A DNA stretch of 48,844 nucleotides from Candidatus Ozemobacter sp. (GCA_030446435.1 JASURT010000002.1:1-48844); one strand, 5' to 3'; counted from the stretch's first letter, positions 18,817-35,793 are shown. Numbers and translations: made by a program. Notes: a model not told the origin generated them from the sequence alone.

Positions 18817-20040
18817 TTAGAAAAAGCTGGCGATGTCTTTGTAGGTTACAAAAATCAGAAGGGTAAGCAGGCAGAGCATACCGATAAAATGTATGTTCTC
18901 TTCGACTCTGGGGGTAATCGCCAGTTTGAGACCGGTAATGGCATTGATGATCGAGAAAAAGAATTCGAGAATGAGAAAGACAATGCGTCCGCCATCGAGA
19001 ACCGGTAGAGGCAGAAGGTTAATGAGACCGATATTGACCGAAAGAATGGCAGTCAGATAAAGAAGATCGAAAATGCCTTTCGATGACTGGTCTTTGATCA
19101 TTTTCATGATTTTAACCGGTCCGGCTACGTCGGCCTGGGTTTCGCGGGTGACCATTTTTACCAGTCCACCAACAGTCTGGGCGATGATGCTGACACCATC
19201 TTCTACGCCTTTTGCAAAAGCCTTGCTGAATGGTAGCTGCTGAAAATCGTAATTGTTTGGTGAAAGACTGATGCCGATTTTGGCAGAGCCCATGCTTCCT
19301 TCAGGTATAACGGTGAATTCCAGAATCTCCTGATCGTGAATCTGAAAAGAATTGTTATTTACTGAGACGTCTTCCTGCAGAACGGCGCCGGCAGCAGAAG
19401 ATTTCGGAATCGGGTGATTTCGCGAAACGCTTAGCTTGATCGCTTTACCGGCACTGTTGTTGATCATGGTTATGCCGTCGTTCCAGTCGGTAAGCTTAAC
19501 ACCATCGATGGCAGTAATTATGTCTCCGCGTCGTATACCGGCTTCGTAGGCTGGTTTTCCTTCCATGGCGTCAAGAACGGCTATATTGGTAATGGGGCCG
19601 CCTGAAATTGCATAAATGATTACGAAAAGAACTATTGCCCAAACCAGATTCATTATCGAACCTGCCGCTAAAACAAGCATTTTTGCCCATCTGGGTCTGG
19701 TCAGATAGCTTTTGGGGTGATCAGGCGGAACCTGTGGCAAATCCGGATCCGGTTCGGGCGGCTCTTCGCCCTCGGCAAGTTCACCTTCTTCTTCTACATT
19801 GTCCATGCCGGCAAGTCTGACAAATCCGCCAAGCGGAAAGGGCCGAAACGAGTAAAGCGTTTCTCCATACTGTTTTTTAAACAGGCGGTTGCCGAAACCA
19901 ATTGCAAATTCGAGAACCCAGATACCGGTCAATTTGGCAGTAATATAATGGCCAAATTCATGAACCAGCGCGATACTTATCAGAACGAAACAGATTGATA
20001 GTATAGTTTTTACTATGACAAAAAGCAGAGATAACATCAA
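18817..20040 (-). CDS. rseP: RIP metalloprotease RseP (M50 family with PDZ domain)
   Basis: HEFGH, FAIGFG, PLGGFV and NLLPLPVLDGG motifs; position after cdsA. Confidence 0.95.
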   Translation of the reverse strand: MMLSLLFVIVKTILSICFVLISIALVHEFGHYITAKLTGIWVLEFAIGFGNRLFKKQYGETLYSFRPFPLGGFVRLAGMDNVEEEGELAEGEEPPEPDPDLPQVPPDHPKSYLTRPRWAKMLVLAAGSIMNLVWAIVLFVIIYAISGGPITNIAVLDAMEGKPAYEAGIRRGDIITAIDGVKLTDWNDGITMINNSAGKAIKLSVSRNHPIPKSSAAGAVLQEDVSVNNNSFQIHDQEILEFTVIPEGSMGSAKIGISLSPNNYDFQQLPFSKAFAKGVEDGVSIIAQTVGGLVKMVTRETQADVAGPVKIMKMIKDQSSKGIFDLLYLTAILSVNIGLINLLPLPVLDGGRIVFLILEFFFSIINAITGLKLAITPRVEENIHFIGMLCLLTLLIFVTYKDIASFF

Positions 20041-20062
20041 ACAACCTTTCCTGAATAACTGA

Positions 20063-20842
20063 TTAAATCACAAGCAAAGCATAGCACACCGGGCCAAGAA
20101 AAAGAATACTGTCAATGCGATCCAGAATTCCACCGTGAGCCCCAAGAAGTGCCCCCGAGTCCTTGATTTCTGACTCTCGCTTCAGAACAGATTCGAACAG
20201 ATCGGCCAACTGCCCGATTATCGCAGTTGAAAGAGCCAATGCCCAAAATCTTGGTTCGGTCAAAGTAATAAGAGAAAAGTGGCGAACCAGCGCAAAAAAA
20301 GCTATGCAGGTCAATGCCCCGCCAATTGCGCCGGAAATAGTTTTGTTCGGACTGATTCGGGGCGAAAGTTTCGGGCCCCGTATCGACATGCCAAACACAT
20401 ATGCACCGATATCAAGTGCCCAGATCGATGCAAGCATTATAAAAAGCAGCTGCCCGCCCATACTTTTACCGAGAAGGAGGTAAAAACTGAGACAGAAAGG
20501 CAGATAAATCAAACTGAAAAGCCCAAGAGCGAATCTTTGATAACCGTCGCCGCGCAGGCCTCTTAAGACTGTGAAGACAACCATTGCAACGACTGAAAAA
20601 GCAAAAGAAAAGATAATGCCCGGCAGCTGAAAAAAATGTGCCGAACAAAGAATTGCAATTCCCGCAAGCCATTCCGGCACCGGCTTGAATGGAAAATCTT
20701 TGTTCAGCATTGAAGCCAGTTCGTATTGCCCGATCAGGCATATGATTGTGAGAAAAACCAGACGAGCGGTGTCTCCGGCGGCAACCAGAAGGCCATAAAC
20801 CGCCGGAATTCCGATCAATATCACCGGTATTCTTGCAAACAT
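20063..20842 (-). CDS. cdsA: Phosphatidate cytidylyltransferase
   Basis: SPNKT, DLFESVLKR and KDSG...HGGILDRIDS motifs. Confidence 0.95.
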   Translation of the reverse strand: MFARIPVILIGIPAVYGLLVAAGDTARLVFLTIICLIGQYELASMLNKDFPFKPVPEWLAGIAILCSAHFFQLPGIIFSFAFSVVAMVVFTVLRGLRGDGYQRFALGLFSLIYLPFCLSFYLLLGKSMGGQLLFIMLASIWALDIGAYVFGMSIRGPKLSPRISPNKTISGAIGGALTCIAFFALVRHFSLITLTEPRFWALALSTAIIGQLADLFESVLKRESEIKDSGALLGAHGGILDRIDSILFLGPVCYALLVI

Positions 20843-21603
20843 CAGATTTCCTGTTCTGTCAGCTGCTCACTGGTCATGCCAAAGCGGCGTTCTCTTCCCT
20901 GATAGGCTAAGATTGCGCGCAAAAGCTCGACGTCATCAAAATCAGGCCAGAGCACTTCAGTGAAATAAAGCTCTGAATAAGCGCTTCGCCATAGATGAAA
21001 ATTGCTGGTGCGCATTTCGCCGCTGGTGCGAACCAGCAGGTCTACGTCAGGTATTTCGGGCCAATAAAGATGTCGACTGATTGTTTCTTCATCAATCTTT
21101 TCTGGTGCGATACCAGATCTGACAATTTCTCTGACCGCATCTACAATCTCGGCGCGGCCCCCGTAATTAATACAAAGATTAAGACTCAACCCGGAATTAT
21201 TTTTCATCAATTCGGTTGAGATGTCAGCTTCTTTGACAATCTCGGGAGCGAGTTCATTAAGACGACCAACCAGTTTGAATTTGACTCCTTCAGCGTGCAA
21301 TTCCTGGCGCTCGCGAACGATATATGCCTTTATCAGCTTCATCAGAGCAGAGACTTCAAAGCTTGGTCGGGCCCAGTTTTCGACAGAAAAGGCATAAAGA
21401 CTGATGTGTTTAACACCCAGGTCATCAGCGTAACGAACCACGGTTTTAACCCGTTTTGCGCCTTCCTGATGGCCCTTGATGCGGCTTAAGCCTCTTCTTT
21501 TGGCCCATCTGCCGTTTCCATCCATTATTATGCCGATGTGAGCGGGAATATTGCTCATATCGAGCCTGTTTTCAAGCTCTGCTTTGATTTGCTGCCTTGT
21601 CAT
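20842..21603 (-). CDS. uppS: Undecaprenyl diphosphate synthase
   Basis: HIGIIMDGNGRWA, YAFSVENW and RTSGEMRTSNF motifs. Confidence 0.96.
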   Translation of the reverse strand: MTRQQIKAELENRLDMSNIPAHIGIIMDGNGRWAKRRGLSRIKGHQEGAKRVKTVVRYADDLGVKHISLYAFSVENWARPSFEVSALMKLIKAYIVRERQELHAEGVKFKLVGRLNELAPEIVKEADISTELMKNNSGLSLNLCINYGGRAEIVDAVREIVRSGIAPEKIDEETISRHLYWPEIPDVDLLVRTSGEMRTSNFHLWRSAYSELYFTEVLWPDFDDVELLRAILAYQGRERRFGMTSEQLTEQEI

Positions 21604-21615
21604 CAGTTTGTATGT

Positions 21616-21789
21616 TCAGTCTTTCTTATCTCCGGGAATTATTGCATCGACCGGGCAAACCTCAGCGCAGCGTCCGCAATCTGTGCATTTAGATGTTATT
21701 ACATACGGAAAACCTATCTTGATCGCTTTTGCCGGGCAAACTGAATGACAGGTGCCGCATGATACGCATTCTTCTGTAATAATGTACAT
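21616..21789 (-). CDS. 2[4Fe-4S] ferredoxin, 57 aa (absent from the ORF track)
   Basis: My translation is MYIITEECVSCGTCHSVCPAKAIKIGFPYVITSKCTDCGRCAEVCPVDAIIPGDKKD, which has two CxxCxxCxxxCP motifs. Confidence 0.93.
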   Translation of the reverse strand: MYIITEECVSCGTCHSVCPAKAIKIGFPYVITSKCTDCGRCAEVCPVDAIIPGDKKD

Positions 21790-21795
21790 TTCTGC

Positions 21796-22356
21796 TTATT
21801 TCCCGAGAATCTCGTTTTCTTTTGCGCTCAGAACTGAATTGATCATGTCGACGTATTCATCAGTCAACTTCTGAACTTTATCCATCGCTTTTTTGCAGTC
21901 GTCCTGAGTTATTTCACTCTTTTTTTCAAGAGCTTTAAGGGTGTCATTGGCGTCGCGGCGCACATTTCTGATTGCGACCCGGTATTCTTCTGCCTTTTTC
22001 TTTGCAGTTTTAACCAGATCATTTCTGCGTTCTTCGGTAAGTGGTGGAATGGGCAGGCGAATGAGATTGCCGTCATTCATCGGGTTAAGACCGAGATCTG
22101 ATTTTTGAATCGCTTTTTCTATTTCGCCAAGCAGGGTTTTATCCCAGGCTTGAATTACCAGAGATTTCGGATCTGGTGCAGAAACTGATGCGACATGCTG
22201 CAACGGGGTTTCCTGGCCATACTGCATTACGGTAATTCTGCTGAGCAATGAAGGGGTAGCCCTTGAAGTGCGCATGGTAGAGAAATCTTTTTTCAGAACT
22301 TCTACCGACTGGTTCATTTTGGTTTTTGCTTCGTTTATTACTGAATCGTATGACAT
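21796..22356 (-). CDS. frr: Ribosome recycling factor
   Basis: RTSRATP, LGLNP, PPLTEERR and RNVRRDA motifs. Confidence 0.97.
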   Translation of the reverse strand: MSYDSVINEAKTKMNQSVEVLKKDFSTMRTSRATPSLLSRITVMQYGQETPLQHVASVSAPDPKSLVIQAWDKTLLGEIEKAIQKSDLGLNPMNDGNLIRLPIPPLTEERRNDLVKTAKKKAEEYRVAIRNVRRDANDTLKALEKKSEITQDDCKKAMDKVQKLTDEYVDMINSVLSAKENEILGK

Positions 22357-22376
22357 ACGAAATTCCTCCTGATGGT

Positions 22377-23117
22377 TTAATCTCTTTCGATTACGTCGGT
22401 TCCAACCTTTTCGCCAAGACAGGCTTTTAATAAAACCCCCGGTTTTTTCAGCGACAAAACCTTCAATGGCATTTTGTTGTCGCGACAGAGGGTAATGGCG
22501 ACCAGGTCCATGACTCCAAGGTTTCTTTCGAGAACCTCTGAGTAGGTTATGGTTTCAAATTTTTTGGCTTGTGGGTTTTTTTCAGGGTCAGAATCATAGA
22601 CACCGTCTACTTTCGTACCCTTTATCAACACGTCACAGCTGTTTTCGATCGCGCGAAGTGCAGAAGCCGAATCAGTGCTGAAATAAGGGTTGCCGGTTCC
22701 GCCTGAAAACAAACAGACAACCCCTTTATCGAGAAGGTCACGTGCACGGTCTATATTATAGGTCTGTGCCATTTCGCCAATATTTACAGCCGAAAAAACC
22801 GCTGTTTTAACCCCGATATTTTCAAGGTGTTCGGCGAAACAAATTGCATTCATAACTGTGGCAAGCATGCCGATCGAATCAGCGCGGTGCCGCTTCAAAG
22901 CCGAAAGGGTCGTTCGCGCACCTCTGAAAAAATTCCCTCCCCCGATGACGATTCCGGGGATAATGTTTTTGTCTACCAGGCTTTTTATTTCGCCGGCATA
23001 AAGCTCGATGCTTTCACGATTAAAGGCAAAACCGTCACTACCTCCAAGCAATTCGCCGCTGAGTTTGATCAACGGACGCCTGTAAAAAAAACTATTGCAA
23101 TTTTGCTGAACTGACAT
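22377..23117 (-). CDS. pyrH: UMP kinase
   Basis: KLSGE, GGGNFFRG, GTGNPYFSTD and VDGVYDSDP motifs. Confidence 0.97.
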   Translation of the reverse strand: MSVQQNCNSFFYRRPLIKLSGELLGGSDGFAFNRESIELYAGEIKSLVDKNIIPGIVIGGGNFFRGARTTLSALKRHRADSIGMLATVMNAICFAEHLENIGVKTAVFSAVNIGEMAQTYNIDRARDLLDKGVVCLFSGGTGNPYFSTDSASALRAIENSCDVLIKGTKVDGVYDSDPEKNPQAKKFETITYSEVLERNLGVMDLVAITLCRDNKMPLKVLSLKKPGVLLKACLGEKVGTDVIERD

Positions 23118-23142
23118 TTTTTTCTTCTTTGTTAAACAAGGA

Positions 23143-23170
23143 TAGAGACGCCCGTTGCCAGGCGTCTCTA
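23143..23170. promoter_or_regulatory. Hairpin between tsf and pyrH (weak terminator or processing site)
   Basis: TAGAGACGCC-loop-GGCGTCTCTA. Confidence 0.55.
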
Positions 23171-23216
23171 CCGGGTTAACTCTTATGAATTTTCGGAATC
23201 AGTTTCACTCTTGACC

Positions 23217-24158
23217 TTATCCGGCTGCTTCAGCTGATTTTTCTTCTGGAGTGCTTTCTTCGGCATTTCCTTCGCCGAGTGCCCATCTGCGGAAGGTAAC
23301 TACAGTTACTTTAGCGCCGAGCTTTTTGGAAAGGTCTTCGGCCAGATCGTTGATTGACTTGCTGTCATCTTTAACATAAGCCTGTTCAACGAGGCAGTAT
23401 TCTTTGTAATACTTGGCCAGTCTGCCTTCTACGATTTTGTTCATGATTTCTTCAGGTTTGTTGGCGTTTTTCGGGTCATTTTTGATCTGACCGAGAATAA
23501 CGTCTTTTTCTCTTGCCAAAGCTTCAGTTGGAACTTCTTTTGAAGTTGTGTAAACCGGCTTCATGGCAGCTGCCTGAAGAGCGATTTCGTGGGCAAGATT
23601 CAGTGTGTCTTCGCTTTTTGCAGCGGCTTCATTTTCAGTTGCGAGCTGCACGAGAACACCGATGTTGCCATCGCCATGAACGTAAGTGTCGAAAATTCCG
23701 TAGTTGCCGGCAGGAATTTCAAATCTTTCGACGCGGCCGAAAGAAATGTTTTCGCCAGTGTTAGCTACCATGCTTTTGCGGAATTCTTCACCAGACTGAC
23801 CATCTATGGTTGCTTTTTCGAGATCTTCAACGTTTTTGATGGAAGCTGTATTGAGAACGAAGTTGGCTACTTTTTCTGCGAAAGCCACGAAATTTTCATT
23901 TCTGGCAACAAAGTCGGTTTCGCAATTAACTTCGACGATGGCTGCAGTTCTTCTGTCTTCAGTGGTTAACGGAATTACCAGGCCCTGAGAAGTTGCACGA
24001 CCGGAGCGTTTGTCTGCAGAAGCAAGACCCTTCTTGCGAAGAAAATCAACTGCTTCTTCAAAGTTTCCGTTGCATTCCTGCAATGCTTCTTTGCATTTCA
24101 TCATGCCGGCACCGGTTTTTTCACGAAGTTCCTTAACCATTTGAGCTGTTATCTGCAT
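23217..24158 (-). CDS. tsf: Translation elongation factor Ts
   Basis: VKELREKTGAGMMKCK and EVNCETDFVA motifs. Confidence 0.98.
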   Translation of the reverse strand: MQITAQMVKELREKTGAGMMKCKEALQECNGNFEEAVDFLRKKGLASADKRSGRATSQGLVIPLTTEDRRTAAIVEVNCETDFVARNENFVAFAEKVANFVLNTASIKNVEDLEKATIDGQSGEEFRKSMVANTGENISFGRVERFEIPAGNYGIFDTYVHGDGNIGVLVQLATENEAAAKSEDTLNLAHEIALQAAAMKPVYTTSKEVPTEALAREKDVILGQIKNDPKNANKPEEIMNKIVEGRLAKYYKEYCLVEQAYVKDDSKSINDLAEDLSKKLGAKVTVVTFRRWALGEGNAEESTPEEKSAEAAG

Positions 24159-24190
24159 AGCGTTCCACCTTTCAAAACTATTGGGATTTA

Positions 24191-25000
24191 TTATTCAATT
24201 ACGAGTTTGTCTTCATTTTCAGAGGCTGCCATTTCAGCTTCTTTTTCTTCAGCGCCTTCAGCTTTTTCGCTGACTTCAGCGCGGAATTCTCCGCCTTCCT
24301 GAACGTCATCGAAAGATCTGCCTTCGAGAGCTTCGAGAACAGAGTCTGAAATGAGGCTGGTAACAAGCTTGACAGCTCTGATTGCGTCGTCGTTTCCTGG
24401 AATGACGTAATCGATGTCGTCTGGATCACAGTTTGTATCAACAACAGAAACTATAGGAACTCCTACTTTTTTTGCTTCTGCAACTGCGATGCCTTCTTTG
24501 TGAGGGTCAATGACGAAAAGTGCGCCAGGCATGCCCTTCATGTTTTTGATGCCACCAAGAGCGCGATCGAGTTTTTCGCGTTCTTTTTTCATTTTGGAAG
24601 CTTCTTTTTTAGGATAAGACTCGATTTTGCCGCTGTCGATAAGATCGTCAAGCTCTTTCAGTCTTGAGATTCTTTTTTCGATGGTTACGTGGTTGGTAAG
24701 CATACCACCGAGCCAGCGATAGTTAACAAAAAACATTCCGCAGCGTTCAGCTTCGGATTTGATGATGTCCTGGGCCTGTCTTTTGGTGCTTACGAAAAGA
24801 ATCGGTTTTCCTTCGCGAACAACGCTTTTGATAAAATCACAGGCTTCATCGAGAAGTTTGGTTGTCTTCTGAAGATCGATAATGTAAATGCCGTTGCGAG
24901 CTGTGAAGATGTACTTGGCCATCTTGGGGTTCCATCTTCTGGTCTGGTGACCAAAATGTACACCAGCTTCCAGCAGGCTTTTCATAGAAACGATACCCAT
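24191..25000 (-). CDS. rpsB: 30S ribosomal protein S2
   Basis: [19 protein letters not shown] and PGNDDAIRA motifs. Confidence 0.98.
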
Positions 25001-25301: not shown

Positions 25302-26009
25302 ATGGTTAAAAATGCAGAAAAATTATTAACTCTCAGTGAAATTGCCGAAATTCTTCGGGTTTCAAAACATACGGTACAGGCCTGGATATCGCCGAGCTCA
25401 CCGAATCATCGCCCCGAATTCGCGGCGATGGCGCGTCATGCCGGACGTAAAACCGTGTTCATTGAAGATGAAGTGCTGGCCTGGTTGAACCAGAGGCGTG
25501 GCCCGGTTTACTCTACTTCTATTGCCGAAAGATCTGCCTATTGGCGCGAAAGGTTCATTGCGGGTCGCGGCCTGTTAAAGGGGCTGATCAAGTCTTCTGA
25601 AGAAAAAAATACCGGGCTGGTTTCATTTCAGGGTGGTTTGCTGGCAATGGATGCCGAGCCTCTGATTTCATGGCTGGCAGACGGTCAGGGGGCAACCGCT
25701 GTGTACAATCTTGTGATGCGTGCTGATGGCGTTGTATTGCCTGTTCCCCTGGCTTTCTGGGTGTTGCGACGGGCGCTGCGTTTTCCGGCGAGATTCAAAC
25801 AGGTTCAGGACTTTATGCTTGACCAGAACGTCTTTGAACTGGCACCGTTCAATGAAGATGCAATTCGGCGTTCTTTAGAACTTCCAACAGGCTTGAACGA
25901 GCTTTGTTTGCAAAACTATTGTTGCAGCCTGTCCGCGGGTTGCTCGGCTTTTTTGACCGGCAATAAAAATCTTTTGAAAATTCCGGGGCTGCCGTTAATT
26001 TCATTCTAG
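25302..26009 (+). CDS. Excisionase/BldC-like HTH fused to a degenerate PIN-like domain
   Basis: LLTLSEIAEILRVSKHTVQAW...GRKTVF...EVLAWL at the N terminus; PIN-like LAMDAEPLISW and FLTGNKNL at the C terminus. Confidence 0.65.
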   Translation: MVKNAEKLLTLSEIAEILRVSKHTVQAWISPSSPNHRPEFAAMARHAGRKTVFIEDEVLAWLNQRRGPVYSTSIAERSAYWRERFIAGRGLLKGLIKSSEEKNTGLVSFQGGLLAMDAEPLISWLADGQGATAVYNLVMRADGVVLPVPLAFWVLRRALRFPARFKQVQDFMLDQNVFELAPFNEDAIRRSLELPTGLNELCLQNYCCSLSAGCSAFLTGNKNLLKIPGLPLISF

Positions 26010-26166
26010 GCAAGCGAATGGCGATGGTATTTGTCATCTTTTGAGAAAAACGGTATTTGAAACAAGATTTCTGACTGGTGCCAATATTAGTTTGAAAAAA
26101 TACTTCTCATATATAGTGGGGATTGGTATAATTCATTAACTTTAGATCAAGGAATCAGCCGGATAT

Positions 26167-28962
26167 ATGATAGAGGAAATTCTTTTAAGTCTGCAAGACA
26201 AGCTGCGAAGCCACGACTTTCTCGATAACGAGCAGGCGCTGGACAAGTTTTCATCGCTTTTACAATCTCAGACTACCGATAAACAGAAGAAGGTCATTTC
26301 GAACATTCTTCCATTAGCGCTTTCAAGCAAGTTTGAAAGCATTCAGAAGAAAACTGTTCAGACAGTAATCAATTACCCGACCATTCTTAAAGATGTACTG
26401 CCTTCTTTGCGATTATCTTCAGACATGACCGTCAGGTTCTGGGCTCATTTCATAATGATCGAGCTTGGCTTCATCAGACAGGAAGAATTGCTGTCGATTC
26501 TTGACAGTCGCGAAAACGACGAGATCAGAAAAATTGCCCTTGAAGCGGTCGCCAAAAACCCTGATCGAAAAGTTATCATTACTCTGCTTAATAAAATTTC
26601 AGACCCGAGCTGGATAGTTCGCAAGCAGGCGAAAAGAGCCCTGATCGAACAGGGTGACAGTATTTACCAGATTATTCAGGAATACTTTCAAAGCTGCTCG
26701 AGCCAACAGAAGTATGAGTGTATCAAGATCATTCCGCTTATCTTGCGGGAAAAGGCCTTTACCTTATTTCAACGCATGCTTGAATCAGAAAAAAGCGATG
26801 GTCTGAAGCCTTATATTTGCGCGGGTCTTGGTGAAATTCAGAATGAAGCTTCGATGAAGACTCTTTTCGCTCTGCTCGATGATGACTCGCTTCTTGTTCG
26901 TCAGGAAGCAATCAAGTCGCTGCAAAACTGGGGCAAAGAAATCGTAAATTCTTTGATGGCAATTTTTCCGACGGCCAAAAAAGAAACCAGAATCAGTATT
27001 ACCATGCTACTTGGGCGAATTCTCGGGCTCGAACTCATCGAATTATTCAAAGAAAAATTTGGCGCTCCGACCCAGGAAACCAAGTTTTATTTGCTGACCG
27101 GTCTGGGTGAAATTCGTGAGCCTGAAGTTGTAAGTAAACTCATACCTTACCTTAAAGACGAATCGATTTTTATTCAGGAATATACAGTTCGAATTCTCTC
27201 GCAGCTGGGTGTGCATGCGGTTGACCCTTTGCTGGCCTGTCTCGATACCGAAGACGAAGAGCTGATCATTCAGGTTCTGAAGGTTATTGGCGTTATCGGT
27301 TCAAAAGAAGCTTTGCGCCCGCTGCTCTTTTTAATTGATAATTCAAAGAAGACTTTGATTCGCACCTGCGCCATCGAGGCCATTTCAAAACTGCAAAAAT
27401 TCGAGTTGATCGCCGGGCTTCTGCTTCTCAAACTCGATGATAAAGATCTTTCAATCCGGCACACCATAGTCGAAAACCTTTCAAAACAGCCCCGCAAGGC
27501 TTTTCTGAAAGAGCTGGTCGCCGCAACTCTCGATAAGAATGCCGATGTGGCCTGGTGGTCTCGCGAAATATTAAAGCGCCGCGATTATACAGGCATTCCG
27601 TCTTTTTTGAACCTGTATGATGCAGCAACAGATGTTGAGAAAGATCGCATTATTTCTCTCGTGTCGAAGCTGTCTGAAGATCAGTTAGATGCAGTTCTTG
27701 CCCAGGAAAAAATTACTTTTGATTCGTTGAAGCCAGAAAATGTTGAAACCAGGGTTTTACGCCGCAAATTCAACAAAGAGAACATTACTGACCTTAAAGA
27801 ATTGCTTTATTACCTTCACGAAGAAGGCGGCTCGGATCTTCATATTTCGATCGGTCTGCCACCAAGTATTCGTATTCATGGTGAATTGATCAGAACAACT
27901 TTCGAGACCATAACCCCCGAGAAAAGCCGGTTTTTGCTGTTCTCGATCATGAATGAAGCACAGAAACGCGAATTTAACGAACGCATGGAGCTCGACTTTT
28001 CTTACGAAATAGCAGACTGCGCACGCTTTCGTGTCAATGTTTTTCAGCAGAAAAACGGTATGGCCGGCGTATTCAGAATCATTCCGAATACCGTGCCAAC
28101 CTTTGAAGAGCTGTCAATCGACAAGACGGCCATGGAAAAAATCTGTAACCATAAATCAGGTCTGATTCTTGTCACCGGTGCAACAGGTTCGGGAAAATCT
28201 ACTACCCTTGCGGCAATGATCGATCTGGTCAATCGAACCAGATATGACCACATCATAACCATTGAAGATCCGATAGAATTTGTTCACCCGCATAAAAGAA
28301 GTGTTATCACGCAAAGAGAACTGGGCACCAATACCCTTTCTTTTTCAAACGCTCTTAGAAGTGCTTTGCGTGAAGATCCCGATGTTATTCTCGTCGGCGA
28401 AATGCGCGACCTCGAAACGATGAATCTTGCGATTACCGCCTCAGAAACAGGCCATCTGGTTTTTTCGACTTTGCATACCATCAATGCTTACGAATCGATT
28501 CATCGTATTGTCGGCAGTTTCCCCGGCGATGTTCAGCAATCGATCAGAATGCAGCTTGCGGGCACCCTGCGCGGAATCATCTCGCAGCGACTTGTTCCGG
28601 CTTATCTTTCGTCAGGCCGTGTGCTTGCTTACGAAGTTCTGGTCGGTTCACAGCCGGTTCGCCGTTGCGTAAAAGAAGACAAAACCGATCAGCTGATTTC
28701 TATCATGCAGACCAGCCGCCAGGATGGTATGATCACCATGGATCAGTGCCTCGAAGATCTTGTCGTATCGAAGCGCATTACTTACGAAGACGGTTACAAA
28801 AATGCCGAAGACAAAAAAGACTTCCAGAAACGCCTTGAAATGCGTCTTGGCAAAGAGTTTACCCGTTCAGGCCCGCCTGTGCCCAATATTCAGGAAACCG
28901 AAAAGCCCGGAGTGGGTAAACCGGTTATCACCGATAAACCCCAGGTAAAAGGAAGAGTCTGA
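26167..28962 (+). CDS. pilT: Type IV pilus retraction ATPase PilT with a ~530-aa N-terminal HEAT-repeat region
   Basis: GSDLHI, RFRVNVF, GATGSGKST, TIEDPIE, LREDPDVILVGEMRD and TLHT motifs; HEAT units such as ISDPSWIVRKQA. Confidence 0.88.
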   Translation: MIEEILLSLQDKLRSHDFLDNEQALDKFSSLLQSQTTDKQKKVISNILPLALSSKFESIQKKTVQTVINYPTILKDVLPSLRLSSDMTVRFWAHFIMIELGFIRQEELLSILDSRENDEIRKIALEAVAKNPDRKVIITLLNKISDPSWIVRKQAKRALIEQGDSIYQIIQEYFQSCSSQQKYECIKIIPLILREKAFTLFQRMLESEKSDGLKPYICAGLGEIQNEASMKTLFALLDDDSLLVRQEAIKSLQNWGKEIVNSLMAIFPTAKKETRISITMLLGRILGLELIELFKEKFGAPTQETKFYLLTGLGEIREPEVVSKLIPYLKDESIFIQEYTVRILSQLGVHAVDPLLACLDTEDEELIIQVLKVIGVIGSKEALRPLLFLIDNSKKTLIRTCAIEAISKLQKFELIAGLLLLKLDDKDLSIRHTIVENLSKQPRKAFLKELVAATLDKNADVAWWSREILKRRDYTGIPSFLNLYDAATDVEKDRIISLVSKLSEDQLDAVLAQEKITFDSLKPENVETRVLRRKFNKENITDLKELLYYLHEEGGSDLHISIGLPPSIRIHGELIRTTFETITPEKSRFLLFSIMNEAQKREFNERMELDFSYEIADCARFRVNVFQQKNGMAGVFRIIPNTVPTFEELSIDKTAMEKICNHKSGLILVTGATGSGKSTTLAAMIDLVNRTRYDHIITIEDPIEFVHPHKRSVITQRELGTNTLSFSNALRSALREDPDVILVGEMRDLETMNLAITASETGHLVFSTLHTINAYESIHRIVGSFPGDVQQSIRMQLAGTLRGIISQRLVPAYLSSGRVLAYEVLVGSQPVRRCVKEDKTDQLISIMQTSRQDGMITMDQCLEDLVVSKRITYEDGYKNAEDKKDFQKRLEMRLGKEFTRSGPPVPNIQETEKPGVGKPVITDKPQVKGRV

Positions 28963-28980
28963 TTCGAAATTTCGACCCCA

Positions 28981-29011
28981 AAAAATCCCCGTGTGAACGG
29001 GGATTTTTCTT
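28981..29011. terminator. Bidirectional intrinsic terminator
   Basis: AAAAATCCCCGT-GTGA-ACGGGGATTTTT between convergent genes. Confidence 0.88.
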
Positions 29012-29056
29012 TATTTTACGGACTGATTAAGATGAAAAGCGGGGTGAAAATTTCTG

Positions 29057-32000
29057 TCAGCCCCATTTGACACGGTAGGCTTTTACCGGGTTGTCGATGC
29101 CTTTAAGCTGATGTTGGCCGTAGTCTTCGATTTCGAAAATGCTGCGATTGATTCTCTGAAGTGTGTTTTCTGAGATTATGATTTCAAAAGCTTCGCCGAT
29201 TCCTTCCAGACGCGAGGCAAGATTGACCGAATCACCAAGAACATCGCCTTCGGTGCGAATGACCGAACCGCTGTTGATCGCAATTCTTATTGCCAGTCTT
29301 CGTTCTTCAGGAATGTTCGTGTTGAAAGCGTTGAGTTGGCGTTGAATTTCAATGGCAGCAAGAACTGCGTTATTGTGGTTTTCAAAAACAACCAGAAAGG
29401 CATCGCCAATCTTTTTCAGCGCTTCGCCTGAGTATTTGTCGAATACGGGTTTGAGAATTTCGTCATGCTGCTTAAGCATCGACATTACTTCAGAAAGTGA
29501 AGCTTTTGAGCTGAAGGCTGTATAACCTTTTACATCAGTAAACATGATCGCAAGATCCATGGTGTGCGAAGTTTTGATGATTTCATCATATTTCTCAAGT
29601 TCTTCAAGGGCGGCGCGTCTGCGTTCAAGAACATCGTCGAGGTGCGAGTCGGAAAGAACAATCTTAGCTTCGCCTTTAGCTCTGAGCAGGTTGGGGTCAA
29701 CTTCTCCGCCAACGCTTTCGATCAAATCGACGAGAGCTTTGCGGTCGATTTCGTTTTCAAGTTCTTCGATGTATTCGATCAAAGGTTCTTTGATGATCAT
29801 TCCAAGGCTGAGCAGAAAATCGGTTACAGCGCCTTTAAGTCTGAAGTCATCATGAAAGAAGTAGCGGGCCAGAGTTTTGACTGCCCGTTTGATAACCGGC
29901 GGCTCTTCGTCGGGCAAAAGGGTTTCCATGATTGAAAAAGCGATTTTGCGATCATCGATGCTGTCAAGAGCGATAATACAGCAAAGCCGGTAAGCCATGC
30001 TGGGCGAATTGAGACCCTGAACCAGACCATCGGGATTTTTGCGATAAACATAGCTGAGAATCGCGCCGACTTTGTCGACATCTTCCACGGTAATGACTTC
30101 TGAACGCTTTTTCAGCAGTCGGTCAAGCATTTCAAGGAAAGGAGGATTGCTTGATTTAGCCGTTTCCAGCATCAGGTGCAACATCAGATCTGGCTTGCAT
30201 GAATCAAGATATTCTTCGAGAGTCGCAATGGTGCTTGGATAGGCGAATTTGCTGAGAATTCTGACAATGGCACCAAGATTTTGTCGCGATTTTTCGACAC
30301 CAAGTTGTCGGGCGACAATCTTAATGTCACTTTCGGTCAGGTTTTCCCAGTGTTCTACAGCGCTGGCCACATAAAACCTGACTTTTTCGCTTGAATGACT
30401 GAAACCAAGAAAAACGCTGCGACGCAAAGAGCTTGATTCAACCTTTTCAAGCAAATGAGCCAGCCATCTGACCACCTTTTCGTCGGGGTGAGTCAAAAGA
30501 TTCAGAATTGTATTGATAACATCTTTAGATGTGATTTCCGGAATGCTTTCAAAAACGCTTTGAATTCTGTAATCATCATTCGTTTCGAGAAATTTCAACA
30601 CTGCCGGCACCGCATCTGCGTGATTCATTGAAAGCAATGCAGATACGATATGTGGCATAAGACCAGGGTCGTTGCCTTCTTCGAGAATTTTTTTCAGAAT
30701 GACTACAGCTCTTGGACCGATCATCAGCAACGCTTTTCTTGACCAGAATTTTACGTCTTCTGAAGTCGAGTTGAGTGCTTTAACGATGGCAGGCACAGAA
30801 GCTTCGCCAAAATTGACCAGACAGTTTGCCGAAGCATTTCTTACCGGCCAGTTCGGATCACCGAGCAGAGTGATCAGGACTTCGATCAGTTTTTCATGCG
30901 GCGCTATCTTTTGCAAAACGCCGAGCAGAAAAAGTCTTTCCTGCTTGTTTCCTGATTCGAGAATTCTAACGATGGGGTTCAGGGCAAGACCGCCGATTGA
31001 ACCGATTATCTTGATGATTTGAAAACGCAGGTTTTCATCTTCAGTTTCGAGTTTTGTCAGCAACAAATCAAGGTTAAGATTGGGCTTTTGCGCCAGGCAG
31101 TCGGAAGCATAATCAGAGATGACCCGATCGCCTTCAGCCAGACATTTCATAAGCTCATTCGTCGCTTCATCGCTTTTCAGTCTGGCCATGTTTTCTATTG
31201 CAAGAAGCTTGAATTCGTGGTCGTTGGCAGACATGAGTCTTTGCAGCAGCGGCAGAGACTTTTCTTTCAGCATTTCTACAAGAATTTCGATGATCTTGTG
31301 CTTTATCAGCGAGTCGCTTTTGCCAAAAGCTGCGGTAAGCTTGTCGAAAACTTTTGAACCAAGCTTTAAAAGCTGTTCACCTGCTGATTTTCTGATGGCC
31401 CACGATGGGTCAGAAAGCGAAGTTATGATAAAGTCGATGGCATCTGAAGAGCCAAGTTCGCCAAGAGCTGAAATAATGGCAAAGCGCATCTGAAAATTGC
31501 CGGTGCCGTAAATCTTTTTCAGTTCTTGTATGACTTCATCCTGGCCAATTTTGACGAACAGGGCAATAACGGTGTGAGGCGCATTTTGCGAAGGCGAAAG
31601 AATGATTTTACGCAAATCATCCAAAACAACCGGACCAAAGCTGAGCAACTGCTCAAAAACCAGCTTGCGAACCGCCCAGTTCTGGTCATTTAACAGGGGG
31701 TAAAGTGGGCGGGCGTTTTCAATGCTTTTATGCTGGGTTAATGCACGTATGGCATAACTTTTTACCTCTGAATCAGCGTGATTCAGATATTTTCTGATTA
31801 CGGCAAAAGATTGCTCGCCGCCAATGTGCCCAAGAACATTCAGCAGCCAGTAAAACTCATCCGGGTTACTTTCATCGAGTCGATTCTGAATGATTTCAGA
31901 AATCTCGCTGCCCCATTCATTCAGTATTCTCGCCGCAGCCTCTCTTTTGTGCCAGGCTTTGTCTGAAAGAACAGAGATGATTGCTTCGCAGGCTTTTTCG

Positions 32001-32086
32001 CTGTGATCGATCAACAGCGAATTGAGCCCTTCTCTCCAGAGAGCCTCGTCAGTACTCTTTATCAGTTCATAAGGTGACCTGTTCAT
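29057..32086 (-). CDS. HEAT-repeat protein with a C-terminal class III adenylate/guanylate cyclase domain
   Basis: About 800 aa of HEAT repeats; MFTDVKGYT, KKIGDAF and GDVLGDSVNLASRLEG cyclase motifs. Confidence 0.88.
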   Translation of the reverse strand: MNRSPYELIKSTDEALWREGLNSLLIDHSEKACEAIISVLSDKAWHKREAAARILNEWGSEISEIIQNRLDESNPDEFYWLLNVLGHIGGEQSFAVIRKYLNHADSEVKSYAIRALTQHKSIENARPLYPLLNDQNWAVRKLVFEQLLSFGPVVLDDLRKIILSPSQNAPHTVIALFVKIGQDEVIQELKKIYGTGNFQMRFAIISALGELGSSDAIDFIITSLSDPSWAIRKSAGEQLLKLGSKVFDKLTAAFGKSDSLIKHKIIEILVEMLKEKSLPLLQRLMSANDHEFKLLAIENMARLKSDEATNELMKCLAEGDRVISDYASDCLAQKPNLNLDLLLTKLETEDENLRFQIIKIIGSIGGLALNPIVRILESGNKQERLFLLGVLQKIAPHEKLIEVLITLLGDPNWPVRNASANCLVNFGEASVPAIVKALNSTSEDVKFWSRKALLMIGPRAVVILKKILEEGNDPGLMPHIVSALLSMNHADAVPAVLKFLETNDDYRIQSVFESIPEITSKDVINTILNLLTHPDEKVVRWLAHLLEKVESSSLRRSVFLGFSHSSEKVRFYVASAVEHWENLTESDIKIVARQLGVEKSRQNLGAIVRILSKFAYPSTIATLEEYLDSCKPDLMLHLMLETAKSSNPPFLEMLDRLLKKRSEVITVEDVDKVGAILSYVYRKNPDGLVQGLNSPSMAYRLCCIIALDSIDDRKIAFSIMETLLPDEEPPVIKRAVKTLARYFFHDDFRLKGAVTDFLLSLGMIIKEPLIEYIEELENEIDRKALVDLIESVGGEVDPNLLRAKGEAKIVLSDSHLDDVLERRRAALEELEKYDEIIKTSHTMDLAIMFTDVKGYTAFSSKASLSEVMSMLKQHDEILKPVFDKYSGEALKKIGDAFLVVFENHNNAVLAAIEIQRQLNAFNTNIPEERRLAIRIAINSGSVIRTEGDVLGDSVNLASRLEGIGEAFEIIISENTLQRINRSIFEIEDYGQHQLKGIDNPVKAYRVKWG

Positions 32087-32180
32087 CAATTATCCTTAAA
32101 CCTTGCTGTGGTTAATCTTGATAATTATCGACAGATTAACATATAATCTGCAGCAATGGAACTATTTAGGAGGGTATATC

Positions 32181-32549
32181 ATGCCGCTTTATGAATTTTT
32201 CTGTGTTTCGTGCAAAAAAAAGTTCAGTGTTCTGTGTAAAATCGATGAACGTGATGCGGAAAAAACATGCAGTGTCTGTGGTTCAAAAGATACCCGCAGA
32301 ATGGTTTCGCGTTTCAAAACCGTTCGCAGCGAAGAGCAACTGATGGAAAACCTTGCCGACCCTTCTAGTCTGTCGGGCATAGACGAAAATGACCCTAAAT
32401 CAATGGCCGCCTGGGCAAAAAAAATGGCGCGAGAAATGGGCGAAAATATGGACGATGAAATCGATGCCATGGCCGAAGAAGAATTTTCAGGAAACGGCGA
32501 ATCAATGCCTGCTGATGAACCTTACGATTCAGGTGATGACCAGTTGTAA
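32181..32549 (+). CDS. FmdB-family zinc-ribbon protein
   Basis: MPLYEFFCVSC...CSVCGS; AGGAGG RBS; acidic tail. Confidence 0.88.
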   Translation: MPLYEFFCVSCKKKFSVLCKIDERDAEKTCSVCGSKDTRRMVSRFKTVRSEEQLMENLADPSSLSGIDENDPKSMAAWAKKMAREMGENMDDEIDAMAEEEFSGNGESMPADEPYDSGDDQL

Positions 32550-33045: not shown

Positions 33046-33720
33046 TCAGGCTGGTTTTTGGGCTGTGACTAAAAAGTAAGAAATAATCTGGGTTTCATTC
33101 AGGTCGGTGCGACGTAGCGTATCGATGCAAAGCTGATGAAAGCCCGCGGTTTCAAATAGTTTTTCAATTTCTTCGCGATCAAAAAAGTGAATTGTACCAA
33201 TGTTGGCTACTGGCCCTGTGCTAAGGTTTCTGTAGGTGTTGTCTTCAATTTTCTGCCCCGTACCATATCCGGAAATTTCACGACTGAAAAGCCCTGTCGA
33301 AAACAGTTTTCCGCCTGGTTTAAGAATTCTGTAAGCTTCTGAAAGAATTTTTTCGATACCTGCTATTGAATTAGCCGAAATTGCGGCTGAATCAATAATA
33401 GCATCGAAGCTGGCAGAAGAAATTGGCAATGCAGCGGCGTCGGCCTGAAAAAGACCGGCTTTTTCATTTGCCGACTGTAGCAACTGGTTACACTTCTGCA
33501 ATGCGCTTAAACTGCCATCGAAAGCGAAAGTCTGAAAACCTTCACGCGAAAGAAACCATGAATTGGCACCGCCTCCGCAGCCCAGATCGAGTATTCTCGT
33601 TGTTGATCGGTTGCCGGCAAAATAGTTTCTTGCCACAAAACGAATCACTTCTTCTGAAGGATACCGCCCCCAGGTTTTTTGTTGGTGCACCTTTTCCCAT
33701 TCATGGTCAAATGAACTCAT
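33046..33720 (-). CDS. Class I SAM-dependent methyltransferase
   Basis: WGRYPSEEVIRF and ILDLGCGGG motifs; start MSSFD directly after the upstream stop. Confidence 0.88.
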   Translation of the reverse strand: MSSFDHEWEKVHQQKTWGRYPSEEVIRFVARNYFAGNRSTTRILDLGCGGGANSWFLSREGFQTFAFDGSLSALQKCNQLLQSANEKAGLFQADAAALPISSASFDAIIDSAAISANSIAGIEKILSEAYRILKPGGKLFSTGLFSREISGYGTGQKIEDNTYRNLSTGPVANIGTIHFFDREEIEKLFETAGFHQLCIDTLRRTDLNETQIISYFLVTAQKPA

Positions 33721-33721
33721 G

Positions 33722-35792: not shown

Positions 35793-35793
35793 T

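What the first reader, a model, noticed from the sequence alone, without database searches (positions are those of the whole stretch)
25302..32086. Candidate new system: HEAT-solenoid PilT and HEAT-solenoid adenylate cyclase as a convergent pair, with an HTH-PIN regulator
Seen: two adjacent 930-1010 aa genes, each a long HEAT-repeat array capped by a different C-terminal catalytic domain (PilT ATPase, class III cyclase). The repeat units look alike (ISDPSWIVRKQA vs LSDPSWAIRKSA; LQNWG vs LNEWG). The genes share a bidirectional terminator, neither has a TM segment, and no other pil genes are adjacent. Known: in Pseudomonas, pilus retraction is linked to cAMP indirectly through Pil-Chp and CyaB. 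Inference: here the two solenoids may dock on each other or on a common partner, coupling motor state directly to cNMP synthesis. I know no description of such a pair.
Basis: partly seen in the sequence, partly recalled or inferred. Interest (0 to 1): 0.85.

Follow-up and report, generated by a model that had tools for sequence, protein, structure and literature searches.

The report
HEAT-fused PilT beside HEAT-fused adenylate cyclase
Two large neighbouring genes of an uncultured Riflebacteria genome fuse a HEAT-repeat solenoid to a pilus-retraction ATPase and to an adenylate cyclase; both are real and look active, but the evidence that they form one coupled system is weak.

Summary
26167-28962(+) encodes a 931-aa protein: a 511-aa HEAT solenoid, a flexible linker and a complete PilT/PilU ATPase. 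29057-32089(-) encodes a 1010-aa protein: a ~790-aa solenoid, a long helix and a class III cyclase with all catalytic residues. The genes converge on a hairpin terminator at 28981-29008.

The "new coupled system" reading is only weakly supported.
- The pair is adjacent in 40 of 51 genomes (10 of 15 genera) of one Riflebacteria family. It was separated at least three times with both genes kept.
- The PilT|cyclase junction is no better conserved than PilT's junction with the rpsB cluster (11 of 14 genera) or the cyclase's junction with a Zn-ribbon gene (12 of 14).
- The two HEAT arrays are not each other's best match.
- HEAT-PilT occurs in a sister family without this cyclase.

In favour: in one genus PilT is inverted, giving a cyclase-PilT operon.

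The better-supported finding is different. HEAT arrays recur with PilT ATPases. They are fused in 38 of the 150 best representative clusters (Atlas: Rifleibacteriota, Myxococcota, Acidobacteriota). They are also operon partners in this genome. My searches found no paper on this.

The parts
25302..26009 (+). P0001, 235 aa: N-terminal HTH_17 DNA-binding domain plus a C-terminal PIN-like domain of doubtful activity
   Evidence: HTH_17 scores 39.8 bits against a cut-off of 27. PIN scores only E 0.14, 13.2 bits. Atlas neighbours are PIN clusters at 0.91. In 8 orthologs only the first acidic residue, D117, is invariant, and the usual C-terminal acidic positions read T219-x-N. It lies next to HEAT-PilT in 6 of 13 genera examined.
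26167..27699 (+). HEAT solenoid of the HEAT-PilT protein (residues 1-511)
   Evidence: HEAT_2 in 4 stretches. The AlphaFold model is all-helical at pLDDT about 84-93. It is strongly conserved in 29 orthologs.
27700..27789 (+). Flexible linker (residues 512-541)
   Evidence: pLDDT is below 50 at residues 527-538.
27790..28860 (+). Complete PilT/PilU-type ATPase (residues 542-898), followed by a disordered tail to 28959
   Evidence: TIGR01420 scores 462.5 bits against 319.1. It aligns end to end with the solved PilT 3jvu, residues 542-886 against 2-344. The Walker A, Walker B and His-box residues are invariant in 29 orthologs.
28981..29008 (.). Hairpin between the convergent genes, a likely bidirectional intrinsic terminator
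   Evidence: 12-13 pairs, -17.7 and -17.4 kcal/mol, with a U-run after the stem on both strands.
29714..32089 (-). Alpha-solenoid of the HEAT-cyclase (residues 1-792)
   Evidence: HEAT_2 in 7 stretches. The model is all-helical at pLDDT about 75-95.
29561..29650 (-). Long single helix (residues 814-843) just before the cyclase domain, a candidate dimerisation or signal-transmitting helix
   Evidence: Secondary structure. Confidence is low in the monomer model, and the role is inferred.
29063..29557 (-). Class III nucleotidyl cyclase catalytic domain (residues 845-1009)
   Evidence: PF00211 scores 82 bits against 21.9. It aligns with the solved cyclases 3mr7 and Ma1120. D852, K892/K893, D896, N956 and R960 are invariant and D953 is at least 90% conserved in 35 orthologs.
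32103..32549 (+). Zn-ribbon (PF09723) gene transcribed divergently from the cyclase. It is the cyclase's most faithful neighbour.
   Evidence: Pfam. It lies next to the cyclase in 12 of 14 assessable genera, including those where PilT is elsewhere. A promoter-like site at 32118-32147 suggests the true start is further downstream.
18817..25000 (-). Housekeeping cluster rpsB-tsf-pyrH-frr-uppS-cdsA-rseP, which anchors the PilT side of the locus
   Evidence: Pfam. RpsB lies within one gene of HEAT-PilT in 11 of 14 assessable genera.

Best explanation
These are two separately transcribed multidomain proteins specific to one lineage. They are not shown to be a dedicated two-part machine.

(a) P0002 is an accessory PilT-family hexameric ATPase. 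Its 511-aa HEAT solenoid, tethered by a flexible linker, is the motor's own adaptor or regulatory arm. I read it as the fused form of the HEAT/TPR proteins that this genome encodes inside its PilT-PilT operons. Inferred: the arm targets or gates the ATPase ring at a pilus machine.

(b) P0003 is a soluble, probably homodimeric class III adenylate cyclase. A ~790-aa solenoid serves as a protein-binding input domain. It is the only HEAT-type cyclase among about 34 cyclase genes in the genome.

Their convergent adjacency is the ancestral gene order of one Riflebacteria family (names on homologs: Ozemobacteraceae), between the rpsB cluster and a Zn-ribbon/SpoU/sugar cluster. It has been kept mostly by descent.

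Shown: domains, catalytic motifs, terminator, phyletic range, synteny counts. Inferred: adaptor role, cAMP product, dimerisation, absence of obligatory coupling.
For: Domains and motifs.

Separate transcription: convergent genes with a hairpin terminator.

Synteny across 51 genomes of family f1:
- Adjacent in 40 genomes.
- Apart in 10: 9 checked on contig interiors, and G036 judged only from lying on different contigs.
- Neither gene found in 1 (G038, 69% complete).

Junction retention by genus: rpsB|PilT 11 of 14, PilT|cyclase 10 of 15, cyclase|Zn-ribbon 12 of 14. The pair's junction is therefore the least conserved of the three.

The tree of HEAT-PilT rooted by its paralog puts adjacent genera on both sides of the first split. 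The separated genera fall in at least three places: g7, g9 and g13+g5. Separated lineages keep both proteins at the same identity as adjacent ones: PilT 70-73% and cyclase 52-58%.

The HEAT arrays are not reciprocal best hits.

A sister family, f8, has HEAT-PilT (36-39% identity, 5 of 5 genomes) but no cyclase ortholog.

The HEAT-PilT link is general:
- 38 of the 150 best 50%-identity cluster representatives are HEAT+PilT fusions. In a Pfam check, 7 of 10 scanned were confirmed.
- Atlas clusters with T2SSE+HEAT_2 occur in Rifleibacteriota, Myxococcota and Acidobacteriota.
- The own genome has PilT-PilT-HEAT/TPR operons on C164 and C150 with 4-bp overlaps.

Cyclases are abundant: 36 domain matches in 3.28 Mb.
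Against: - Adjacency survives in 10 genera.
- In genus g14 the PilT gene alone is inverted. This gives cyclase then PilT with gaps of 21 and 58 nt, a Shine-Dalgarno-like AGGAA and no hairpin. That looks like an operon.
- In g4 the rpsB side is lost but Zn-ribbon, cyclase and PilT stay together.
- The two arrays share a rare Trp-type repeat, L.D..W.[VI]R, present in only 4 of 6003 ORFs of at least 100 aa. Each is within the other's top four own-genome HEAT hits.
- Both genes arose in, and are confined to, the same family.
- Signalling enzymes with HEAT arrays sit beside PilT genes elsewhere. A HEAT-Ser/Thr-kinase lies directly upstream of PilT-PilT in two proteobacterial records.
- In one genome (G022) the cyclase lies 2.4 kb from the second HEAT-PilT paralog.
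- Short contigs from RNA libraries of one study match both genes at 98-100%. DNA carry-over is not excluded.
Confidence: 0.6

Rival explanations
1. Coupled module. The HEAT-cyclase is a signalling partner of the HEAT-PilT motor. Its solenoid binds the PilT ring, the PilT arm or a shared partner, so that motor state or location sets cAMP synthesis, or cAMP production is placed at the pilus base.
For: - Adjacent in 40 of 51 family genomes.
- Operon-like cyclase-PilT arrangement in g14.
- Shared rare Trp-type repeat.
- Identical phyletic range.
- HEAT-kinase next to PilT-PilT in Proteobacteria shows that HEAT-tagged signalling enzymes recur beside PilT genes.
- The cyclase lies near the second paralog in G022.
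Against: - Separated at least three times with both genes retained and no faster divergence.
- The junction is no better kept than the junctions with rpsB or the Zn-ribbon gene.
- Convergent orientation with a terminator in most genera.
- The arrays are not sister paralogs.
- HEAT-PilT exists without this cyclase in family f8. In the few HEAT-PilT loci from other phyla that I held (L071, L087), no cyclase-domain ORF was found with a single-sequence query.
- Cyclases near the second paralog (4 ORFs in 3 of 8 loci, 131 kb) are not clearly above the roughly 1.4 expected from genome density.
Confidence: 0.25
2. The cyclase's real conserved partner is the small Zn-ribbon protein transcribed divergently from it (32103-32549), not PilT. 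The two share a short divergent control region and move together.
For: The Zn-ribbon gene lies next to the cyclase in 12 of 14 assessable genera. These include g13, g9 and g8, where PilT is elsewhere. The domain is PF09723. A promoter-like site lies in the shared region.
Against: - It is lost next to the cyclase in g14 and not detected in g7.
- Adjacency alone, in a family with generally high synteny, is the same kind of weak evidence as for PilT.
- No function is known for this small protein.
Confidence: 0.2
3. P0002 is not a pilus-retraction motor. It is a PilT-derived ATPase recruited to another task or to regulation, so any link to pilus retraction is moot.
For: - The C-terminal motif that canonical PilT carries (AIRNLIRE; motif and its importance recalled) reads PVRRCVKE here. 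The paralog on C193 has AVSNLIRE.
- No pil genes are at the locus.
- The genome has at least 8 PilT-like frames.
- Its second HEAT-PilT copy lacks the whole Walker A/B core yet stays an open frame.
Against: - It scores above the curated PilT/PilU cut-off and aligns end to end with solved PilT.
- All ATPase motifs are invariant across 29 orthologs.
- PilU-type accessory motors also lack that motif (recalled).
Confidence: 0.1

Closest known systems
PilT/PilU type IVa pilus retraction ATPases (solved: P. aeruginosa PilT 3jvu, Geobacter PilT 6ojx, Aquifex PilT 2ewv)
   Same: Residues 542-886 align with 3jvu 2-344 at E 9e-104. The protein scores above the NCBIfam cut-off. The Walker A, Walker B and His-box residues are conserved.
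   Different: - It has a 511-aa N-terminal HEAT solenoid plus linker and a 33-aa disordered tail.
- The C-terminal AIRNLIRE-type motif is degenerate.
- It is not in a pil gene cluster.
Uncharacterised HEAT+PilT fusion proteins of Myxococcota, Acidobacteriota and other Rifleibacteriota (Atlas and representative clusters)
   Same: Same architecture: HEAT_2 array followed by T2SSE/PilT. It occurs in 38 of the 150 best representatives. Atlas clusters have 74, 131 and 51 members (commonest phylum Myxococcota) and 92 members (Acidobacteriota). A Holophagae record carries the fusion followed by a second PilT.
   Different: They are only 26-45% identical over the whole length. No cyclase was found beside the two fusion loci I held from other phyla. 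I found no experimental study.
Solenoid adaptors of pilus ATPases, e.g. the TPR protein SgmX, which with MglA stimulates type IV pilus formation in Myxococcus xanthus (PMC7519303; I saw only the search listing with title and significance text)
   Same: An alpha-solenoid repeat protein acts on a type IV pilus machine. This matches the inferred role of the HEAT arm and of the HEAT/TPR genes inside this genome's PilT operons.
   Different: - SgmX is TPR, free-standing, and acts on pilus formation rather than on PilT.
- Here the solenoid is HEAT-type and covalently fused to the PilT paralog.
- Function here is inferred only.
Pil-Chp / CyaB / cAMP-Vfr surface-sensing pathway of Pseudomonas aeruginosa (recalled, not read here)
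   Same: It links type IV pilus activity to cAMP made by a class III cyclase.
   Different: - The link there is indirect, through a chemosensory system and a membrane-bound cyclase.
- Here there are no chemosensory genes at the locus.
- The cyclase is soluble, with a HEAT solenoid.
- No evidence of coupling was obtained.
Soluble bacterial class III cyclases with solved catalytic domains (3mr7; Ma1120 4wp3/4wp9)
   Same: The catalytic domain, residues 846-1005, aligns at E 2e-18 to 8e-16. The metal-binding, substrate-specifying and transition-state residues are in place.
   Different: The input domain is a ~790-aa HEAT solenoid. In the search, orthologs with this architecture (67 clusters) came only from Riflebacteria-named or unnamed metagenome records.

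Membership tests
PilT/PilU family type IVa pilus ATPase (TIGR01420) | Score above the curated family cut-off over the full model | tested here: met
   462.5 bits against 319.1, model positions 2-343 of 343.
PilT/PilU family type IVa pilus ATPase (TIGR01420) | Walker A, Walker B and His-box ATPase motifs (motif names recalled) | tested here: met
   GATGSGKST at 669-677, DVILVGE at 739-745 and TGHLVFSTLHT at 761-771. The core residues are invariant in 29 orthologs.
PilT/PilU family type IVa pilus ATPase (TIGR01420) | C-terminal AIRNLIRE motif of canonical PilT (recalled) | tested here: not met
   It reads PVRRCVKE opposite AIRNLIRE of 3jvu. The paralog on C193 has AVSNLIRE. This fits an accessory, PilU-like paralog.
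PilT/PilU family type IVa pilus ATPase (TIGR01420) | Encoded with other pilus genes | tested here: not met
   The flanks are the rpsB cluster and sugar, SpoU and Zn-ribbon genes. Other PilT paralogs of the genome do lie with a pilin-like gene.
Class III nucleotidyl cyclase (PF00211) | Domain score above the gathering threshold | tested here: met
   82 bits against 21.9, residues 842-1005.
Class III nucleotidyl cyclase (PF00211) | Two metal-binding Asp, a Lys/Asp substrate pair (adenylate-specific) and Asn/Arg transition-state residues (roles recalled) | tested here: met
   D852, D896, K892/K893, D953, N956 and R960 align with 3mr7. They are invariant or at least 90% conserved in 35 orthologs. 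The product, cAMP, is inferred.
Class III nucleotidyl cyclase (PF00211) | Dimeric active site | not testable with these tools
   Only a long helix, 814-843, before the domain in a monomer model.
Pil-Chp/CyaB-type pilus-to-cAMP pathway | Chemosensory (Chp-like) genes and a membrane-anchored cyclase | tested here: not met
   There are no such genes within the window flanks examined, and no TM-like segment in the cyclase. Genome-wide presence of Chp-like genes was not tested.
Conserved two-gene functional module (HEAT-PilT + HEAT-cyclase) | Adjacency kept in relatives beyond background synteny | tested here: not met
   Adjacent in 40 of 51 genomes and 10 of 15 genera. The junctions with rpsB (11 of 14) and the Zn-ribbon gene (12 of 14) are kept at least as well.
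Conserved two-gene functional module (HEAT-PilT + HEAT-cyclase) | Co-transcription | tested here: inconclusive
   Convergent with a terminator in most genera. Co-directional with gaps of 21 and 58 nt in g14.
Conserved two-gene functional module (HEAT-PilT + HEAT-cyclase) | HEAT arrays are sister paralogs | tested here: not met
   Each array has better own-genome hits (C110, C240) than the other array. They do share a rare Trp-type repeat variant that C240 also carries.
Conserved two-gene functional module (HEAT-PilT + HEAT-cyclase) | Physical interaction of the two proteins | not testable with these tools
   It needs a binding experiment; see Tried and rejected.
HTH-PIN regulator (P0001) | PIN domain with its conserved acidic residues | tested here: inconclusive
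   Pfam PIN E 0.14, 13.2 bits against 23.6. No PDB profile hit. Atlas PIN neighbours at 0.91. Only D117 is invariant among the expected acidic positions.

The most novel reading that the evidence does not exclude
A Trp-type HEAT array acts as a docking code in this lineage. The array occurs on HEAT-PilT, on the HEAT-cyclase and on a free-standing 787-aa HEAT protein. It would bring a PilT-family motor and a soluble adenylate cyclase into one complex, so that motor state or position at the pilus base directly sets cAMP synthesis. More widely, HEAT-tagged signalling enzymes (cyclase here, Ser/Thr kinase in Proteobacteria) would be general read-outs of PilT motors.
Probability: 0.12. Interest if true: 0.75.

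Novelty: new variant of a known kind. Interest (0 to 1): 0.4.

Why it matters
Few proteins are known to control pilus-retraction ATPases. How cells turn pilus activity into second-messenger signals is known in detail for only a few model species.

The solid result here is a recurring, unstudied association of HEAT (and HEAT/TPR) solenoids with PilT-family ATPases. They are fused in many clusters across at least three phyla, and they are operon partners in this genome. This points to a class of motor adaptors that could be tested in culturable Myxococcota.

A soluble adenylate cyclase with a 790-aa solenoid input is also a new input type for class III cyclases.

If the cyclase really did read the motor, it would be a direct motor-to-cAMP link. 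The present evidence makes that a minority possibility.

Tried and rejected
Complex prediction. I sent cyclase solenoid residues 1-489 with the PilT arm residues 1-511, each as an alignment. The score was 0.24 against a mark of 0.32, so there is no verdict. This says nothing for or against binding. The pair of domains tested (solenoid with solenoid) may also not be the relevant one.

PIN domain of P0001. The Pfam hit was weak and the PDB profile search was empty. I left it as PIN-like.

Genome-collection scan for distant HEAT-PilT loci. The patterns came from the ATPase core, so 76 of the 80 loci were plain PilT. Only L071 and L087 were fusions, and L100 and L113 had a HEAT gene beside PilT. 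This is too few to test for cyclase neighbours in other phyla. The cyclase scan there also used a single-sequence phmmer query at E 1e-4, which is less sensitive than a profile.

Cyclases near the second HEAT-PilT paralog.
- G012 has two HAMP-cyclases directly upstream.
- G029 has a GAF-PAS-cyclase two genes away.
- G022 has the HEAT-cyclase 2.4 kb away.
- In all, 4 ORFs in 3 of 8 loci (131 kb), against about 1.4 expected from 36 matches per 3.28 Mb.
I rejected this as evidence. The excess is small and the kin are not independent.

A correction. My first ORF/BLAST map suggested that both flanks had changed in g4. tblastn showed the Zn-ribbon and SpoU genes still beside the cyclase, so I withdrew that argument.

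Flanks of HEAT-PilT in the genera where the cyclase has left are unrelated metabolic genes: NAPRTase, FmdE and CobO. No replacement partner appears.

RNA libraries. Only short contigs of one study match, with small shares (0.09 and 0.06). They show presence in RNA libraries. They do not show transcription level, strand or co-expression.

Literature. Six searches listed no paper whose title or abstract start describes HEAT-PilT or HEAT-cyclase. I saw only the search listings and read no paper's text. Supplements were not consulted.

The tree is a quick LG+G4 search with SH-aLRT only. The two main sub-clades have support of 94 and 88. I left out G021 (frameshifted gene) and further genomes of genera already represented.

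Full report
WHAT IS THERE

The window is contig C252 of a 3.28-Mb metagenome-assembled genome (259 contigs, 84% complete). Named homologs come from Candidatus Riflebacteria/Rifleibacteriota, mostly Ozemobacteraceae.

Three ORFs make up the finding.

P0001 (25302-26009, +) has a solid HTH_17 domain. Its C-terminal half is only PIN-like:
- Pfam gives E 0.14.
- A PDB profile search found nothing.
- Language-model neighbours are PIN clusters at 0.91.
- Only the first expected acidic residue is invariant in 8 orthologs.

P0002 (26167-28962, +, 931 aa) has this layout in the AlphaFold model:
- residues 1-511: helical solenoid, pLDDT about 84-93;
- residues 512-541: disordered linker;
- residues 542-898: complete PilT domain;
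- residues 899-931: disordered tail.

The ATPase part scores 462.5 bits against the PilT/PilU cut-off of 319.1. It aligns end to end with solved P. aeruginosa PilT. Its nucleotide-binding motifs are invariant in 29 orthologs. The C-terminal AIRNLIRE-type motif (recalled from the PilT literature) is degenerate here, while the paralog on C193 keeps it. P0002 therefore looks like an accessory paralog among at least 8 PilT-like frames.

P0003 (29057-32089, -, 1010 aa) has a solenoid at 1-792, a long helix at 814-843 and a class III cyclase domain at 845-1009. The metal-binding Asp pair, the Lys/Asp substrate pair and the Asn/Arg pair are conserved in 35 orthologs. An active adenylate cyclase is predicted; the product is inferred.

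The genes converge on a 12-pair hairpin with U-runs on both strands. Neither protein has a TM-like segment. The flanks hold no pil genes.

IS THE PAIR CONSERVED?

I searched 87 genomes of the phylum.

Phyletic range:
- Full-length orthologs of both genes occur in 50 of 51 genomes of family f1. The exception is G038, which is 69% complete.
- No cyclase ortholog occurs in the 36 genomes of the other ten families.
- A HEAT-PilT of 36-39% identity occurs in all 5 genomes of family f8. It also occurs as a second paralog in at least 17 f1 genomes.

Adjacency in f1, by coordinates and after checking fragmented cases:
- Adjacent in 40 of 51 genomes, covering genera g1, g2, g3, g4, g6, g10, g11, g12, g14 and g15.
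- Apart in 10 genomes: g5, g7, g8, g9 (2), g13 (4, one judged only from lying on different contigs) and one g15 genome.
- Neither gene found in 1 genome.

A tree of HEAT-PilT rooted by the paralog puts adjacent genera on both sides of the first split. Adjacency is therefore ancestral. The separated genera fall in at least three places.

Separated lineages keep both proteins at the same identity to the window as adjacent ones of similar depth.

IS THAT MORE THAN SYNTENY?

The ancestral order is: rpsB cluster | (HTH) | PilT> <cyclase | Zn-ribbon> <SpoU | sugar genes.

Junction retention by genus:
- rpsB|PilT: 11 of 14.
- PilT|cyclase: 10 of 15.
- cyclase|Zn-ribbon: 12 of 14.

When the pair splits, PilT stays with rpsB and the cyclase leaves with the Zn-ribbon gene. 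The pair's junction is thus the least conserved of the three, so descent is a sufficient explanation.

Points that still favour a link:
- In g14 the PilT gene alone is inverted. This gives cyclase then PilT with 21- and 58-nt gaps, a ribosome-binding-like AGGAA and no hairpin.
- In g4 the rpsB side is lost but the pair persists.

ARE THE SOLENOIDS SISTERS?

No. Own-genome BLAST results:

| Query array | Best hit | Second hit | The other member of the pair |
|---|---|---|---|
| PilT arm | second HEAT-PilT paralog, 2e-32 | 787-aa all-HEAT protein on C240, 4e-18 | cyclase, 4e-9, 21% identity |
| Cyclase solenoid | C240, 1e-32 | second HEAT-PilT paralog (C110), 9e-16 | PilT arm, 1.7e-13 |

The two arrays therefore share a sub-type of repeat but are not each other's closest relatives.

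WHAT THE HEAT ARM MORE LIKELY MEANS

HEAT arrays go with PilT ATPases repeatedly.
- Own genome, C164: HEAT/TPR | PilT-PilT-HEAT/TPR-PilT-PilT-pilin-like gene.
- Own genome, C150: PilT-PilT-HEAT/TPR-HEAT, with 4-bp gene overlaps.
- Among 1.84 billion representatives, 38 of the 150 best hits to P0002 are HEAT+PilT fusions of 664-1008 aa. Another 10 carry two PilT domains. Pfam confirmed 7 of 10 scanned as HEAT_2+T2SSE.
- Atlas clusters with this architecture are commonest in Rifleibacteriota, Myxococcota (three clusters) and Acidobacteriota.
- A Holophagae record has the fusion followed by a second PilT.
- Two proteobacterial records have a HEAT-Ser/Thr-kinase directly upstream of PilT-PilT.

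Fusion in some lineages and operon partnership in others suggests that the solenoid is the motor's own adaptor.

The genome also fuses HEAT arrays to CheR. It has about 34 HEAT ORFs and 36 cyclase-domain matches. Many of the cyclases are ~1000-aa HAMP-cyclases in tandem. P0003 is the only HEAT-cyclase.

VERDICT

The domain architecture is real and the proteins look active. The HEAT-PilT class appears undescribed in the literature I could search (listings only).

A dedicated PilT-cyclase coupling is possible, at about 25% for some functional link and about 12% for direct docking. No interaction result was obtained (see Tried and rejected).

Short contigs from RNA libraries of one study match both genes. 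This is compatible with expression and proves nothing more.

Noticed in passing
G000 contig C110:5844-8162 (L059:5844-8162, +): The genome's own copy of the second HEAT-PilT paralog is 772-777 aa, against about 905-975 aa in relatives. It lacks PilT model positions about 100-224 (Walker A/B core) but stays one open frame. This is either a degenerate pseudo-ATPase or an assembly collapse.
   Followed up: partly
G000 contigs C164:7810-17676 (L060) and C150:13404-19434 (L155:1405-7435): There are two operon-like clusters in which pairs of PilT paralogs are followed by HEAT/TPR proteins (715, 773 and 808 aa) with 4-bp overlaps. On C164 a pilin-like gene (N_methyl motif) follows.
   Followed up: partly
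G000 contig C231:589-6090 (L149): A TPR protein, a single-domain response regulator and a 1032-aa HEAT-CheR methyltransferase fusion lie in a row. This is another motility or signalling enzyme carrying a HEAT array.
   Followed up: no
G000, genome-wide; e.g. L150:233-6195, L153:1762-7736: There are 36 class III cyclase-domain matches in a 3.28-Mb genome. Many are ~1000-aa HAMP-cyclases arranged as tandem pairs with overlapping stop and start codons.
   Followed up: partly
window 32103-32549 (+) and its orthologs: A Zn-ribbon (PF09723) gene is transcribed divergently from the cyclase and travels with it in 12 of 14 genera. That makes it a more faithful neighbour than PilT. The listed TTG start is probably too far upstream, given a promoter-like site at 32118-32147.
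   Followed up: partly
L100:8632-13440 and L113:8491-13338 (proteobacterial records): A HEAT-repeat Ser/Thr protein kinase (830 and 845 aa) lies directly upstream of a PilT-PilT pair and is followed by metG. The two records are probably related lineages.
   Followed up: partly
P0184-P0191, P0196, P0206, P0284: These representative proteins of about 710-1020 aa carry two PilT-type ATPase domains in tandem. One cluster is named Candidatus Eremiobacterota.
   Followed up: no
L051:2044-11401 (G034, genus g13): Where the HEAT-cyclase has left PilT, it heads a row of three ~1000-1100-aa cyclase genes on one strand.
   Followed up: no
L065:244-9777 (G012) and L068:1269-9679 (G029): The second HEAT-PilT paralog lies directly downstream of two HAMP-cyclases in G012. 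In G029 it lies two genes from a GAF-GAF-PAS-cyclase. Given the cyclase density, this is not clearly above chance.
   Followed up: partly
P0001 orthologs, alignment A3: An invariant stretch, W-[IM]-S-P-S-S-P-N-H, follows the HTH recognition helix in all 8 orthologs. This is unusual for HTH_17 proteins, and I have no explanation for it.
   Followed up: no
window 33046-37843 (-): This is a sugar-nucleotide cluster: methyltransferase, FemAB-like/GNAT, NeuB-type synthase, NAD-dependent dehydratase and CBS-nucleotidyltransferase. It is conserved beyond the cyclase side in several genera.
   Followed up: no
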